Shown: positions 22,196 through 61,067 of the stretch, one piece after another
How the letters are laid out: every line of letters starts with the position of its first letter
How positions within the stretch are numbered: position 1 is the stretch's first letter
Source of the DNA: the human T2T-CHM13v2.0 reference genome, Homo sapiens
NCBI RefSeq assembly: GCF_009914755.1
Contig: NC_060933.1
Reading direction: 5' to 3' (one strand)
Length of the DNA stretch: 64,000 bases
The notes under the pieces: model-generated
Told to the model about the DNA's origin: nothing
Databases searched by the model: none
Seen by the model: the letters and a program-made list of their open reading frames with translations, nothing else
Made by a program: the position numbers and the translations under genes

Positions 22196-25100
22196 TTTTA
22201 ATTTTATTATTATTATACTTTAAGTTTTAGGGTACATGTGCACAACGTGCAGGTTTGTTACACATGTATACATGTGCCATGTTGGTGTGCTGCACCCATT
22301 AAGTCGTCATTTAGCATTAGGTATATCTCCTAATGCTATCCCTCCCCGCTCCCCCCACCCCACAACAAGCCCCAGTGTGTGATGTTCCCCTTCCTGTGTC
22401 CATGTGTTCTCATTGTTCAATTCCCACCTATGAGTGAGAACATGCAGTGTTTGGGTTTTTGTCCTCGCGATAGTTTGCTAAGAATGATGGTTTCCAGCTT
22501 CATCCATGTCCCTACAAAGGACATGAACTCATCGTTTTTTATGGCTGCATAGTATTCCATGGTGTATATGTGCCACATTTTCTTAATCCAGTCTATCATT
22601 GTTGGACATTTGGGTTGGTTCCAAGTCTTTGCTGTTGTGAATAGTGCCACAATAAACACATGTGCATGTGTCTTTATAGCAGCATGATTTATAATCCTTT
22701 GGGTATATACCCAGTATTGGGATGGCTGGGTCAAATGGTATTTCTAGTTCTAGATCCCTGAGGAATCGCCACACTGATTTCCACAATGGTAGCACTAGTT
22801 TACAGTCCCACCACAGTGTAAAAGTGTTCTTATTTCTCCACATCCTCTCCAACACCTGTTGTTTCCTGACTTTTTAATGATCTCCATTCTAACTGGTGTG
22901 AGATGGTATCTCATTGTGGTTTTGATTTGCATTTCTCTGATGGCCAGTGATGGTGACCACTTTTTCATGTGTTTTTTGCCTGCATAAATGTCTTCTTTTG
23001 AGAAGTGTCTGTTCATATCCTTTGCCCACTTTTTGATGTGGTTGTTTGTTTTTTTCTTGTAAATTTGTTTGAGTTCATTGTAGATTCTGGATATTAGCCC
23101 TTTGTCAGATGAGTAGGTTGCAAAAATGTTCTCCCATTCTGTAGGTTGCCTGTTCACTCTGATGGTAGTTTCTTTTGCTGTGCAGAAGCTCTTTAGTTTA
23201 ATTAGATCCCATTTGTCAATTTTGGCTTTTGTTGCCATTGCTTTTGGTGTTTTAGACATGAAGTCCTTGCCCATGCCTATGTCCTGAATGGTATTGCCTA
23301 GGTTTTCTTCTAGGGTTTTTATGGTTTTAGGTCTAACCTGTAAGTCTTTAATCCATCTTGATTTAATTTTTGTATAAGGTGTAAGGAAGGGATCCAGTTT
23401 CAGCTTTATACATATGGCTAGCCAGTTTTCCCAGCACCATTTATTAAATAGGGAATCCTTTCCCCATTTCTTGTTTTTGTCAGGTTTGTCAAAGATCAGA
23501 TAGTTGTAGATGTGTCGCATTATTTCTGAGTGCTCTGTTCTGTTCCATTGGTCTATATCTCTGTTCTGGCACCAGTACCATGGTGTTTTGGTTACTGTAG
23601 CCTTGTAGTATAGTTTGAAGTCAGGTAGCGTGATGCCTCCAGCTTTGTTCTTTTGGCTTAGGATTGACTTGGCAATGCCGGCTCTTTTTTGGTTCCATAT
23701 GAACTTTAAAGTAGCTTTTTCCAATTCTGTGAAGAAAGTCATTGGTAGCTTGATGGGGATGGCATTGAATCTATCAATGAACTTGGGCAGTATGGCCATT
23801 TTCACAATATTGATTCTTCCTACCCATGAGCATGGAATGTTCTTCCATTTGTTTGTATCCTCTTTCATTTCATTGAGCAGTGGTTTGTAGTTCTTGAAGA
23901 GGTCCTTCACATCCCTTGTAAGTTGGATTCCTAGGTATTTTATTCTCTTTGAAGCAATTGTGAATGGGAGTTCACTCATTATTTGGCTCTCTGTTTGTCT
24001 GTTATTGGTGTATAAGAATGCTTGTGATTTTTGCACATTGACTTTGTATGCTGAGACTTTGCTGAAGTTGCTTATCAGCTTAAGGAGATTTTGGGCTGAG
24101 ACGATGGGGTTTTCCAGATATACAATCATGTCATCTGCAAACAGGGACAATTTGACTTCCTCTTTTCCTAATTGAATGCCCTTTATTTCCTTCTCCTGCC
24201 TGATTGCCCTGGCCAGAACTTCCAACACTATGTTGAATAGGAGTGGTGAGAGAGGGCATCCCTGTCTTGTGCCAGTTTTCAAAGGGAATGCTTCCAGTTT
24301 TTGCCCATTCAGAATGATATTGGCTGTGGGTTTGTCATAGATAGCTCTTATTATTTTGAGATACGTCCCATCAATACCTAATTTATTGAGAGTTTTTAGC
24401 ATGAAGGGCTGTTGAATTTTGTCAAAGGCCTTTTCTACATCTATTGAGATAATCATGTGGTTTTTGTCTTTGGTTCTGTTTATATGCTGGATTACATTTA
24501 TTGATTTGCATATATTGAACCAGCCTTGCATCCCAGGGATGAAGCCCACTTGATCATGGTGGATAAGCTTTTTGATGTGCTGCTGGATTTGGTTTGCCAG
24601 TATTTTATTGATGATTTTTACATCAATGTTCATCAAGGATATTGGTCTAAAATTCTCTTTTTTGGTTGTGTCTCTGCCAGGCTTTGGTATCAGAATGATG
24701 CTGGCCTCATAAAATGAGTTAGGGAGGATTCCCTCTTTTTCTATGATTGGAATAGTTTCAGAAGGAATGGTACCAGCTCCTCCTTGTACTTCTGGTAGAA
24801 TTCGGCTGTGAATCCATCTGGTCCTGGACTTTTTTTGGTTGGTAAGCTATTCAGATCCTGTTATTGGTCTATTCAGAGATTCAACTTCTTCCTGGTTTAG
24901 TCTTGGAGGGTGTATGTGTCAAGGAATTTATCCAGTTCTTCTAGATTTTCTAGTTTATTTGTACAGAGGTGTTTATAGTATTCTCTGGTAGTTTGTATTT
25001 CTGTGGAATCGGTGGTGATATCTCCTTTGTCATTTTTTATTGCGTCTATTTGATTCTTCTCTCTTTTCTTCTTTATTAGTCTTGCTAGAGGTCTATCAAT

Positions 25101-28100
25101 TTTGTTGATCTTTTCAAAAAACCAGCTCCTGGATTCATTGATTTTTTGAAGGTTTTTTTGTGTCTCTATTTCCTTCAGTTCTGCTCTGATCTTAGTTATT
25201 TCTTGCCTTCTGCTAGCTTTTGAATGTGTTTGCTCTTGCTTCTCTAGTTTTTTAATTGTGATGTTAGGGTGTCAATTTTAGATCTTTCCTGCTTTCTCTT
25301 GTGGGCATTTAGTGGTATAAATTTCCCTCTACACACTGCTGTGAATGTGTCCCAGAGATTCTGGTATGTTGTGTCTTTGTTCTCATTGGTTTCAAAGAAC
25401 ATCTTTATTTCTGGCTTCATTTCGTTATGTACCCAGTAGTCATTCAGGAGCAGGTTGTTCAGTTTCCATGTAGTTGAGTGATTTTGAGTGAGTTTCTTAA
25501 TCCTGAGCTCTAGTTTGTTTGCACTGTGGTCTGAGAGACAGTTTGTTATAATTTCTGTTCTTTTACATTTGCTGAGGAGTGCTTTCCTTGCAACTATGTG
25601 GTCAATTTTGGAATAGGTGTGATGTGGTGCTGAAAAGAATGTATATTCTGTTGATTTGGGGTGGAGAGTTCTGTAGATGTCTATTAGGTCTGCGTGGTCC
25701 AGAGCTGAGTTCAATTCCTGGATATCCTTGTTAACTTTCTGTCTTGATGATCTGTCTAATATTGACAGTGGGGTGTTAAAGTCTCCCTACTATTGTGTGG
25801 GAGTCTAAGTCTCTTTGTAGGTCTCTGAGGACTTGCTTTATGAATCTGGGTGCTCCTGTATTGGGTGCATATATATTTAGGATAGTTAGCTCTTCTTGTT
25901 GAATTGATCCCTTTACCAGTATGTAATGGCCTTCTTTGTCTCTTTTGATCTTTGTTGGTTTAAAGTCTGTTTTATCTGAGACTAGGATGGCAACCCCTGC
26001 CTATTTTTGTTTTCCATTTGCTTGGTAGATCTTTCTCCATCCCTTTATTTTGAGACTATGTGTGTCTCTGCACGTGAGATGGGTTTCCTGAATATAGCAC
26101 ACTGATAGGTCTTGACTCTTTATCCAATTTGCCAGTCTGTGTCTTTTAATTGTAGCATTTAGCCCATTTACATTTAAGGTTAATATTGTTATGTGTGAAT
26201 TTGATCCTGTCATTATGATGTTAGCTGGTTATTTTGCTCATTAGTTGATGCAGTTTCTTCCTAGCCTGGATGGTCTTTACAGTTTGGCATGTTTTTGCAG
26301 TGGCTGGTACCGGTTGTTCCTTTCCATGTTTAGTGCTTCCTTCAGGAGCTCTTTTAGGGCAGGCCTGGTGGTGACAAAATCTCTCAGCATTTGCTTGTCT
26401 GTAAAGGATTTTATTTCTCCTTCACTTATGAAGCTTAGTTTGGCTGGATATTAAATTCTGGGTTGAAAATTCTTTCCTTTAAGAATGTTGAATATTGGCC
26501 CCCACTCTCTTCTGGCTTGTAGAGTTTCTGCCGAGAGATCAGCTGTTAGTCTGATGGGCTTCCCTTTGTGGGTAACCCGACCTTTCTCTCTGGCTGCCCT
26601 TAACATTTTTTCCTTCATTTCAACTTTGGTGAATCTGACAATCTTGTGTCTTGGAGTTGCTCTTGTTGAGGAATATCTTTGTGGCGTTCTCTGTATTTCC
26701 TGAATTTGAATGTTGGCCTGCCTTGCTAGAGTGGGGAAGTTCTCCTGGATAATATCCTGCAGAGTGTTTTCCAGCTTGGTTCCATTCTCCCCGTCACTTT
26801 CAGGTACACCAATCAGACATAGATTTGGTCTTTTCACATAGTCCCATATTTCTTGGAGGCTTTGTTTATTTCTTTTTATTCTTTTTTGTCTAAACGTCTT
26901 TCTCACTTCATTTCATTCATTTCATCTTCCATCACTGATACCCTTTCTTCCAGTTGATCGAATTGGCTACTGAGGCTTCTGCATTCATCATGTAGTTCTC
27001 ATGCCGTGGTTTTCACCTCCATCAGGACCTTTAAGGACTTCTCTGCCTTGGTTATTCTAGTCAGCCATTCGTCTAATTTTTTTTTCAACGTTCTTAACTT
27101 CTTTGCCATGGGTTCAAACTTCCTCCTTTAGCTCGGAGTAGTTTGATCTTCTGAAGCCTTCTCTCAACTCGTCAAAGTCATTCTCCATCCAGCTTTGTTC
27201 CGTTGCTGGTGAGGAGCTGCGTTACTTTGGAGGATGAGAGGTGCTCTGATTTTTAGAGTTTCTGGTTTTTCTGTTCTGTTTTTTCCCCATCTTTGTGGTT
27301 TTATCTACCTTTGGTCTTTGATGATGGTGACATATAGATGGGTTTTTGGTGTGGATGTCCTTTCTGTTTGTTAGTTTTCCTTCTACCAGTCAGGACCCTC
27401 AGCTGCAGGTCTGTTGGAGTTTGCTGGAGGTCCACTCCAGACCCTGTTTGCCTGGGTATCAGCAGCGGTGGCTGCAGAACAGCGGATATCGGTGAACCGC
27501 AAATGCTGCTGCCTGATCGTTCCTCTGGAAGTTTTGTCTCAGAGGGTTACCCGGCCGTGTGAGGTGTCAGTCCGCCCCTACTGGGGGATGCCTCCCAGTT
27601 AGGCTACTCGGGGGTCAGGGACCCACTTGAGGAGGCAGTCTGCCCATTCTCAGATCTCATGCTGCATGCTGGAGAACCACTACTCTCTTCAAAGCTGTCA
27701 GACAGGGACATTTAAGTCTGCAGAAGTTACTGCTGCCTTTTGTTTGTCTGTGCCGTGCCCCCAGAGGTGGAGCCTACAGAGGCAGGCAGGCCTCCTTGAG
27801 CTGTGGTGGGCTCCACCCAGTTTGAGCTTCTGGGCCACTTTGTTTAGCTACTGAAGCCTCGGCTATGGTGGGCGCCCCTCCCCCAGCCTCACTGCCGCCT
27901 TGCAGTTTGATCTCAGACTGCTGTGCTAGCATTGAGTGAGGCTCCATGGGCGTAGGATTCTCTGAGCCAAGTGCGGGATATAATCTCCTGTTGTGCCGTT
28001 TGTTAAGCCCATTGGAAAAGCGCAGTATTAGGGTGGGAGTGATCCGGTTTTCCAGGTGCCATCTGTCACCCCTTTCTTTGACTAGGAACGGGAATTCCCT

Positions 28101-60781: not shown

Positions 60782-61067
60782 TGCCTCGCCCTGCTTTGGC
60801 TTATGCACGGTGTGCTGCACCCACTGTCCTGCACCCACTGTCCGGCACTCCCCAGTGAGATGAACCTGGTACCTCAGTTGGAAATGCAGAAATCACCCAT
60901 CTTCTGCATCGCTCACACTGGGAGCTGTAGACTGGAGCTGTTCCTATTTGGCCATCATGGCTCAGACTATAATAACATTCGTTAATAGTGCACCAATCAC
61001 ATCAGAAAAGTTTTTATGTATTGAAAGGCCATCAAGCTTGTGCTGGCAGATATGTGTTCCAAAATTC

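What the first reader, a model, noticed from the sequence alone, without database searches (positions are those of the whole stretch)
22196..60967. Two separately inserted full-length L1s, 32.7 kb apart, share private variants along their length, including the same ORF1 nonsense codon
Seen in sequence: L1-B and L1-C both end ORF1 at IFNILKGKNFQPRI* (TAA at 26451-26453 and 59109-59111), whereas L1-A reads ..LKEKNFQPRISYPAKLS. They also share HIVARKALL (~25585, ~58240; recalled consensus HIVGSKALL), KTPWYW (~23582, ~56212; KTAWYW), DLQVRP, EWENIF (EWEKIF), AIPIL (AIPLL), ENFPT (ENFPN) and UTR variants (tcatcgtttt, gctagcattgag). Their flanks are unrelated (an Alu tail inside a MaLR versus Charlie1), so this is not a segmental duplication. 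Established knowledge: the ORF1p YPAKLS motif and C-terminal domain are needed for retrotransposition, and L1 acts mainly in cis. Inference: a template carrying this stop could not have produced both copies normally. The best explanation is multi-kb ectopic gene conversion between neighbours; the alternative is trans-mobilisation of a dead L1 to a nearby site. Each copy also has private lesions (e.g. the L1-B deletion near 24851), so the homogenisation is old.
Basis: partly seen in the sequence, partly recalled or inferred. Interest (0 to 1): 0.85.

Follow-up and report, generated by a model that had tools for sequence, protein, structure and literature searches.

The report
Neighbouring L1 copies homogenised by gene conversion
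Two old, dead LINE-1 copies lying 33 kb apart on human chromosome 9 carry the same set of private mutations, including one stop codon, most likely because one copy overwrote the other by gene conversion soon after they inserted, which is a known kind of event and not a paradox of L1 biology.

Summary
L1-B (22194-28316) and L1-C (54829-60967), both on the minus strand, are full-length and have unrelated flanks. They share the ORF1 stop TAA. They share 19 non-CpG variants that none of 18-20 other family copies carries; the other pairs reach at most 7, with a mean near 1.5. They are sisters in a tree (support 1.0).

LKGK is a subfamily state. KTPW occurs in 54 copies and the TAA in at least 16 other copies. 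The ARKA double change is found only in B and C genome-wide, and no sampled copy combines the set.

Segmental duplication and a dispersed dead sub-lineage are rejected. I tested further L1 pairs picked only for lying 15-65 kb apart. They also share private variants far more than dispersed pairs do (p about 4e-7), including 5'-truncated copies, which lack the L1 promoter. In a second full-length pair the shared changes are 13 non-synonymous to 1 synonymous.

Early ectopic gene conversion between neighbours is therefore the best explanation (about 0.6). The main rival is a shared source or local reinsertion (about 0.25). Primate orthologues, the decisive test, could not be examined. This is a new instance of a known process.

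The parts
22194..28316 (-). L1-B, a full-length primate L1 (L1PA3/4 grade by recalled criteria). Its 5' end abuts an Alu A-rich tail, and its 3' tail has decayed into TA/GA repeats.
   Evidence: Pfam RVT_1 and Transposase_22
54829..60967 (-). L1-C, a full-length L1 of the same sub-lineage, with its own target-site duplication and a 7-A tail.
   Evidence: Pfam RVT_1 and Exo_endo_phos
26451..26453 (-). Shared ORF1 stop (TCA to TAA) in L1-B. It comes just before the YPAKLS motif and cuts the C-terminal domain at profile position 26 of 65.
59109..59111 (-). The same stop in L1-C. It lies inside the longest identical stretch between B and C (232 bp).
25571..25603 (-). 33-mer in L1-B carrying the double change G to A and S to R (HIVARKALL) in the endonuclease domain.
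   Evidence: exact match only here and in L1-C in the whole genome
58227..58259 (-). The same 33-mer in L1-C.
60968..60980 (-). 5' copy of the target-site duplication of L1-C (13 nt, 2 mismatches to the 3' copy).
   Evidence: read from the sequence
54816..54828 (-). 3' copy of the target-site duplication of L1-C.
   Evidence: read from the sequence
24852..24853 (-). Site of a 17-nt deletion private to L1-B. It is one of 20 indels that differ between B and C.
3206..8550 (-). L1-A, an older, 5'-truncated L1 used as outgroup. It is not part of the homogenised pair.

Best explanation
L1-B and L1-C are two independent insertions of the same L1PA sub-lineage, 32.7 kb apart and in the same orientation. 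While they were still nearly identical, non-allelic (ectopic) gene conversion copied one onto the other over essentially the whole 6.1 kb, in one long event or several patches. This carried along decay mutations the donor had already acquired in place, including the ORF1 stop and the ARKA change. The exchange then ceased, and the two copies drifted apart by 4.85%.

Shown: separate insertion sites, exclusive shared variants along the whole length, and the neighbour effect in other pairs. Inferred: that the transfer was DNA to DNA, its direction, and its early timing.
For: - Separate insertions: the flanks are unrelated and the target sites distinct.
- B and C share 19 non-CpG pair-exclusive variants, against a maximum of 7 and a mean of 1.6 in the other 189 pairs. 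They form a clade with support 1.0, stem 0.0092 and tips 0.029 and 0.035.
- The haplotype is confined to the locus. The ARKA 33-mer is exact only in B and C; the other 16 of 18 hits at up to 1 mismatch carry a single change. None of 13 of the 52 other KTPW copies, nor any of the 7 other DLQ copies, has more than 3 of 8 B/C states. The nearest sub-lineage copy, L045, shares only 4 of 16.
- The sharing depends on proximity. Pairs were picked only for lying 15-65 kb apart. L051-L052 (15.7 kb apart, inverted, own flanks) share 16 exclusive variants, second only to B-C among 231 pairs. In the 3' 790 bp, 8 neighbour pairs score 4, 2, 2, 2, 1, 0, 0, 0, against 163 dispersed pairs with 148 zeros and 15 ones (Mann-Whitney p 3.8e-7). 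All three linked full-length pairs are sisters in the tree.
- The effect also appears in 5'-truncated pairs, which lack the L1 5'UTR and so, from established knowledge, its promoter (L053-L054: 4 exclusive variants within 170 bp). It also appears as a 300-bp cluster in L055-L056, a pair that is otherwise 6.3% diverged.
- The shared changes look like neutral decay. L051-L052 have 13 non-synonymous to 1 synonymous, against 29:31 for changes fixed in the active lineage (p 0.0024). B and C share a stop codon.
- For Alu, conversion is reported to be elevated between copies under 10 kb apart (PMC6598467, passages read).
Against: - No tract boundary or mosaic was found. At 93 sites that separate two sub-subfamilies, both copies carry the older state at 79. 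B alone carries the younger state at 4, C alone at 4, and these are scattered.
- The longest run of agreement (232 bp, around the stop) is only marginal (p 0.052).
- A tract of at least 5.2 kb is long for mammalian conversion (recalled).
- The shared tail AATAATAATAAAATTAAAAAA and the even spread of shared sites fit common descent from one RNA source equally well.
- The B/C shared coding changes, 14 non-synonymous or stop to 8 synonymous, lie between the neutral ratio (91:23) and the active-lineage ratio (29:31) and differ significantly from neither.
- In positions 2550-5700, L045 is as close to B and to C (96.4% and 96.2%) as they are to each other (96.3%).
- The neighbour sample is small: 10 pairs, three of them from one trio.
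Confidence: 0.6

Rival explanations
1. Shared source without DNA exchange. B and C are siblings, or parent and offspring, made by retrotransposition from one rare source that already carried the about 19 private changes. Either they landed 33 kb apart by chance or L1 has an undescribed bias to reinsert near the donor. The stop was then either tolerated through trans-complementation or added later by a short conversion patch.
For: - The relation is tree-like over the whole length, with no mosaic.
- The shared sites are evenly spread from 383 to 5617.
- The 3' tail motif is shared.
- 14 non-synonymous or stop changes to 8 synonymous is not clearly neutral.
- The nested structure (L045, then B with C) looks like an evolving source lineage.
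- The 232-bp identical run around the TAA hints that the stop could have been exchanged later.
Against: - The chance that one copy lands within 32.7 kb either side of another is 2.1e-5, and the haplotype has only these two members genome-wide.
- The common ancestor carried a stop before YPAKLS, a motif whose mutation severely reduces retrotransposition (PMC2951350, passages read).
- No dispersed copy with a subset of the strictly exclusive changes was found.
- Truncated neighbour pairs, which lack the promoter and so cannot be parents, show the same excess.
- The second full-length neighbour pair shares 13 non-synonymous to 1 synonymous changes, unlike an active lineage.
- No local reinsertion bias of L1 is known (recalled).
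Confidence: 0.25
2. Segmental (DNA-level) duplication of a block containing one L1, with the flanks later lost or rearranged.
For: Same orientation and similar divergence.
Against: Self-comparison of the window finds no flank homology at the 32.6-kb offset. It finds only about 300-bp repeats, mostly 72-86% identical, at inconsistent offsets. C has its own target-site duplication, and B lies in an Alu tail.
Confidence: 0.03
3. A dispersed, non-autonomous L1 sub-lineage defined by the stop. The variants would then be the consensus of a small family mobilised in trans.
For: The 42-mer with GGA and TAA has 4 other exact copies, and the TAA occurs in at least 16 other copies. KTPW has 54 copies.
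Against: Of the 4 other GGA+TAA copies, three are older elements (83-87% identical to C over most or all of their length). The fourth, L003, shares only 2 further B/C states. The KTPW copies span 75-96% identity and share nothing else, so these are recurrent mutations. The ARKA double change has no other carrier.
Confidence: 0.04

Closest known systems
Non-allelic gene conversion between neighbouring Alu elements (Aleshin and Zhi 2010, as cited in PMC6598467; Kass et al. 1995, cited there)
   Same: Independently inserted retroelement copies lying close on one chromosome come to share sequence variants. The effect depends on proximity and identity.
   Different: Here the elements are 6.1-kb L1s, not 300-bp Alus. 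The spacing is 15-65 kb rather than under 10 kb. In B/C the shared variants cover the whole element, with no visible tract edge.
Gene conversion between L1 elements (Tremblay et al. 2000 in mouse cells; L1 Ta and pre-Ta mosaics, Myers et al. 2002, Vincent et al. 2003; all recalled, not read here)
   Same: L1 copies serve as donors for homologous repair of other L1 copies.
   Different: As far as I recall, the reported cases are short patches or experimental repair of double-strand breaks. They are not an old homogenisation of two fixed neighbours over the whole element.
Trans-complementation of defective L1s (Wei et al. 2001, listed in the references of PMC2951350)
   Same: It would let an ORF1-defective copy make offspring.
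   Different: It is rare and gives no reason for proximity. It also does not explain the same effect in truncated pairs.
Concerted evolution of duplicated genes by conversion that stops once divergence builds up (Teshima and Innan 2004, cited in PMC6598467)
   Same: Exchange happens while the copies are similar, and independent divergence follows.
   Different: Here the copies arose by separate retrotransposition, not duplication. No selection is involved.

Membership tests
Full-length primate LINE-1 (L1PA) | ORF1 with trimerisation, RRM-like and C-terminal domains | tested here: met
   Transposase_22 at 2e-60, Tnp_22_trimer, and Tnp_22_dsRBD cut at profile position 26 of 65, in the B fragment.
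Full-length primate LINE-1 (L1PA) | ORF2 with endonuclease and reverse transcriptase | tested here: met
   Exo_endo_phos at 4e-12 in C. RVT_1 at 2e-40 in C and 2e-46 in B. The frames are broken by stops and indels.
Full-length primate LINE-1 (L1PA) | Target-site duplication and A-rich 3' tail | tested here: met
   C has 13-nt repeats with 2 mismatches at 60968-60980 and 54816-54828. B is ambiguous because its target is A-rich.
Full-length primate LINE-1 (L1PA) | Assignment to a named subfamily (L1PA3, 4 or 5) against Dfam consensus sequences | not testable with these tools
   No Dfam or RepeatMasker library is available. B and C are 3.6% and 4.2% from the sample majority, and they keep a 5'UTR segment of about 125 bp (positions about 772-896 of the element) that the younger group lacks. 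The grade given is from recall.
Ectopic (non-allelic) gene conversion between dispersed repeats | Donor and acceptor at separate loci with unrelated flanks | tested here: met
Ectopic (non-allelic) gene conversion between dispersed repeats | Shared derived variants absent from other family members | tested here: met
   19 non-CpG pair-exclusive variants against at most 7 in 189 other pairs. ARKA is exact only in B and C genome-wide.
Ectopic (non-allelic) gene conversion between dispersed repeats | Delimited tract or mosaic structure (GENECONV-type signal) | tested here: inconclusive
   The longest run of agreement gives p 0.052. Subfamily-diagnostic sites show no mosaic.
Ectopic (non-allelic) gene conversion between dispersed repeats | Dependence on physical proximity | tested here: met
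   Neighbour pairs against dispersed pairs give p 3.8e-7. All three linked full-length pairs are sisters.
Ectopic (non-allelic) gene conversion between dispersed repeats | Paralogues grouping together against orthologues in outgroup species | not testable with these tools
   No primate genomes are held.
Segmental duplication | Homology extending into the flanks at a constant offset | tested here: not met
Non-autonomous L1 sub-lineage mobilised in trans | Several dispersed copies sharing the defect together with the linked variants | tested here: not met

The most novel reading that the evidence does not exclude
L1 may reinsert preferentially near its donor, so that even a copy with a dead ORF1, rescued in trans, seeds full-length offspring tens of kilobases away. 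On that reading the sister relation of all three linked full-length pairs (B/C, L051/L052, L013/L014) would reflect local retrotransposition rather than DNA exchange. A milder version is that early, whole-element concerted evolution is the rule for neighbouring young L1s and systematically distorts L1 trees and ages.
Probability: 0.1. Interest if true: 0.8.

Novelty: new member of a known kind. Interest (0 to 1): 0.38.

Why it matters
The shared stop codon is not evidence that a dead L1 retrotransposed. It is most simply decay copied between neighbours.

More usefully, the small control suggests that L1 copies within tens of kilobases often exchange sequence early in their residence. If that holds genome-wide, three things follow:
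- Source-lineage trees, subfamily calls and divergence-based ages of clustered L1s are biased.
- Shared "private" variants cannot be read as shared ancestry without checking distance.
- Disabling or regulatory changes can spread locally without transposition.

Three paper searches found no such analysis for L1. The held library lacks most subscription journals.

Tried and rejected
- Segmental duplication: rejected by self-comparison of the window.
- Dispersed dead sub-lineage: rejected by exhaustive exact k-mer scans and by sampling.
- Coordinate intersection of the k-mer hit lists, done by eye. No element outside the locus has two of the exclusive variants. Power is low, because an exact 33-42-mer catches perhaps a quarter of carriers (my own rough estimate).
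- Variants first counted as private turned out to be sub-subfamily or retained CpG states: position 4156 (377 copies), 5802 (110), 4997 (about 1,250), plus 3283 and 3224, which L045 shares.
- Whole-element DNA search for nearest relatives. It scored only 39 of 32,316 candidates and missed B itself, so it cannot rank relatives.
- Mosaic test by diagnostic sites, longest-run permutation (p 0.052), discordance at common polymorphisms and the non-synonymous to synonymous ratio for B/C: none discriminates.
- The high-divergence bin at 1251-1500 is an alignment effect of a small indel in C, not a mosaic.
- The neighbour pair L049/L050 was unusable, being rearranged or partial.
- An apparent spatial clustering of KTPW copies dissolved: the clustered copies are unrelated (75-96% identical to C).
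- Supplements of the papers were not consulted.
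Full report
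WHAT IS THERE. A comparison of the L1-C region with the whole window finds three L1 copies, all on the minus strand:
- A at 3206-8550, 87.4% identical to C and 5'-truncated
- B at 22194-28310, 94.6% identical
- C itself

Reading the junctions puts B at about 22194-28316 and C at about 54829-60967. Both are full-length. Pfam finds the L1 ORF1 domains, the endonuclease and the reverse transcriptase. Stops and indels break the frames in each copy, and 20 indels differ between B and C, including a 17-nt loss in B at about 24852.

THE STOP. The ORF1 fragment of B ends ...FNILKGKNFQPRI at a TAA at 26451-26453. C has the same TAA at 59109-59111, and A reads GAA...TCA at these places. The stop comes just before the YPAKLS motif and truncates the C-terminal domain at profile position 26 of 65. 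Mutating YPAKLS282-287 severely reduces retrotransposition (PMC2951350, passages read).

SEPARATE INSERTIONS. Upstream of B lies the 3' end and A-rich tail of an Alu (recognised from recall). C is flanked by a 13-nt repeat with two mismatches (60968-60980 and 54816-54828) and has only seven A's. A self-comparison of the window gives no flank-to-flank homology at the 32.6-kb offset. It gives only repeats of about 300 bp, mostly 72-86% identical, at inconsistent offsets. This is not a segmental duplication. I did not test the MaLR and Charlie1 labels.

IS THE SHARING MORE THAN CHANCE? I fetched 24 full or near-full copies from the same genome and aligned them to C.
- B and C are 95.15% identical over 6,101 columns. 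Either of them against the 18 same-family copies gives 90.5-94.3%.
- I counted variants carried by exactly two of 20 copies. B-C has 20, of which 19 are non-CpG. The other 189 pairs have a mean of 1.6 and a maximum of 7.
- The sites run from position 383 to 5802. They include ENFPT, the two ARKA changes, KTPW and the Q of DLQVRP.
- B and C also share a 3-nt deletion in ORF1, which a further 5-nt loss in C overlaps, and the tail motif AATAATAATAAAATTAAAAAA.
- A maximum-likelihood tree places B and C as sisters with support 1.0, a stem of 0.0092 and tips of 0.029 and 0.035.

HOW PRIVATE ARE THE VARIANTS? The pattern search of the whole genome is exhaustive for exact words.
- The 42-mer with GGA (LKGK) and TAA has 6 exact copies. 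Of the four outside this locus, three are older elements (83-87% identical to C over most or all of their length). The fourth, L003, is of the same family but shares only two further states.
- At up to one mismatch there are 165 matches. Most are GGA with an intact TCA, so LKGK is a subfamily state. Among the 100 rows listed, 11 carry GAA with TAA and one more carries GGA+TAA plus another change. The stop therefore recurs in at least 16 other copies.
- KTPW has 54 exact copies. The DLQ word has 9, and about 1,250 copies carry the neighbouring subfamily form.
- The word for position 3543 has 93 copies, 71 of them in one tandem array on contig 8. Position 5481 has 94 copies. Position 4156 has 377 and position 5802 has 110; these last two are sub-subfamily or retained CpG states.
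- The 33-mer with both ARKA changes is exact only in B and C. The other 16 of 18 hits at up to one mismatch carry one change or the other (6 and 10).
- I sampled 13 of the 52 other KTPW copies and all 7 other DLQ copies. None carries more than 3 of the 8 B/C states in positions 4100-5700, counting the site it was picked for and the common state at 4997.
- I picked three copies by intersecting hit lists; they share the sub-lineage states at 3283, 4156 and 4997. One of them, L045, also shares 3224. Twelve of 16 sites in positions 2550-5700 remain exclusive to B and C.

So the combined haplotype is confined to this locus as far as I could search.

WHAT DOES NOT DISCRIMINATE.
- At 93 sites that separate a younger and an older sub-subfamily, B and C both carry the older state at 79. 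B alone has the younger state at 4 and C alone at 4, and these are scattered. I see no mosaic.
- The longest run of agreement spans 232 bp (positions 1766-1997) and contains the stop. It reaches only p 0.052 in a permutation of polymorphic sites. Other pairs also have long identical runs there.
- An apparent divergence peak at 1251-1500 is an alignment effect.
- Shared coding changes in B/C are 14 non-synonymous or stop to 8 synonymous. That lies between the private changes (91:23, neutral decay) and the changes fixed between sub-subfamilies (29:31). It differs significantly from neither.
- In positions 2550-5700, L045 is as close to B and to C as they are to each other. About 12 shared changes sit on branches of about 55-60 private ones.

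A CONTROL THAT DOES DISCRIMINATE. From the hit lists I took further L1 pairs only because they lie 15-65 kb apart.
- One pair, L049/L050, was unusable.
- L051 and L052 are 15.7 kb apart on contig 3, inverted, full-length, with unrelated flanks, and L051 has its own target-site duplication. They share 16 non-CpG pair-exclusive variants along the whole element. That is second only to B-C (19) among 231 pairs, where the rest have at most 7 and the mean over all 231 is 1.47. They are sisters with support 1.0.
- L013 and L014, 158 kb apart, are sisters at 0.963.
- In positions 2550-5700, among 37 copies, the neighbour pairs score as follows: B-C 9; L051-L052 9; L055-L056 4 (all within 4778-5081); L056-L057 4; L055-L057 2; L053-L054 4 within 785 bp; L062-L063 2 adjacent bases; L058-L059 0; L060-L061 0; L064-L065 0; L013-L014 1. 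The 345 dispersed pairs have a mean of 0.40 and a maximum of 4.
- Restricting to copies with the same sub-subfamily state and to the 3' 790 bp, eight neighbour pairs score 4, 2, 2, 2, 1, 0, 0, 0. The 163 dispersed pairs score 148 zeros and 15 ones. Mann-Whitney gives p 3.8e-7 and Fisher's test for a score of 2 or more gives 2e-6. Three of the pairs come from one trio, so they are not independent.
- Several of these copies are 5'-truncated. They lack the 5'UTR and so, from established knowledge, the L1 promoter.
- The 14 shared coding changes of L051/L052 are 13 non-synonymous to 1 synonymous. That is unlike the active lineage (p 0.0024) and like neutral decay.

INFERENCE. Chance proximity is very unlikely. 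The chance that one copy lands within 32.7 kb either side of another is 2.1e-5, and sharing tracks proximity in independent pairs. A local, DNA-level process that also acts on promoter-less fragments and transmits unselected changes fits non-allelic gene conversion. For Alu this is reported to be elevated at short range (PMC6598467, passages read).

In every pair the shared portion is a minority of the branch; for B/C the stem is about a fifth of the path to the tips. That fits exchange while the young copies were still nearly identical, followed by independent decay. The requirement for high identity is from established knowledge; the timing is inference. On this view the stop arose in one resident copy and was copied to the other, and no dead template had to retrotranspose.

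WHAT REMAINS OPEN. For B/C itself, the even, whole-length, tree-like sharing is equally what a common RNA source would give. I therefore keep that rival at about 0.25. It would need either a very unlikely landing or an undescribed local reinsertion bias, plus trans-complementation or a later patch for the stop.

The decisive evidence is the state of the orthologous copies in other primates, which is out of reach here. Subfamily names and absolute ages are not tested. From recalled rates, the 4.85% divergence (296 substitutions in 6,101 columns) suggests a split in the order of 15-20 million years ago.

LITERATURE. Three full-text searches returned no paper analysing conversion between neighbouring L1 copies. 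The held library lacks most subscription journals, and I recall but did not read older L1 conversion papers. Of PMC13192797 I saw only one passage, which lists gene conversion among processes that blur old L1 history.

Noticed in passing
L051 and L052 (contig 3, 18979639-18985939 and 18961482-18967782): A second pair of independently inserted full-length L1s, 15.7 kb apart and inverted. They share 16 pair-exclusive variants along the whole element, 13 non-synonymous to 1 synonymous among the coding ones, and are sisters with support 1.0.
   Followed up: partly
L053-L065 (contigs 1 and 2; loci): L1 pairs chosen only for lying 16-65 kb apart share private variants far more than dispersed pairs do (p about 4e-7). 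This includes 5'-truncated copies and a 300-bp cluster in L055/L056. The sample is small, and three pairs come from one trio.
   Followed up: partly
contig 8, about 86.09-86.94 Mb (hits): 71 exact hits of one L1 ORF2 34-mer, spaced about 12.2 kb apart in blocks of alternating strand. This is a large tandem array whose unit contains an L1 fragment.
   Followed up: no
window 56202-56234 and 23571-23603; 52 other places: The G-to-C change that gives KTPWYW recurs in 54 L1 copies of very different ages (75-96% identical to C among the 13 sampled). The site looks prone to mutation rather than a lineage marker.
   Followed up: partly
window 59109-59111; rows: The same TCA-to-TAA stop in ORF1 is found in at least 16 other L1 copies on different backgrounds: 11 with GAA and 5 with GGA. 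On the GGA background that is more than my rough expectation of fewer than one.
   Followed up: partly
window 58971-59202 and 26313-26544: B and C are identical over 232 bp around the stop, although they differ by 4.85% overall. This may be a later short conversion patch, but the permutation p is only 0.052.
   Followed up: yes
window about 59824 (C) and 27172 (B): A 3-nt deletion in a GAG/GAA-rich stretch of ORF1 is shared by B and C, and C has lost 5 more bases at the same spot. It could also be independent slippage.
   Followed up: partly
L060 (contig 1, 194501366-194504516): A truncated L1 whose 5' part is inverted relative to its 3' part, as twin priming would give.
   Followed up: no
window 51468-53083: The annotated processed pseudogene HNRNPA1P41 lies between the two L1s, about 1.7 kb from the 3' end of L1-C. 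I did not examine it.
   Followed up: no
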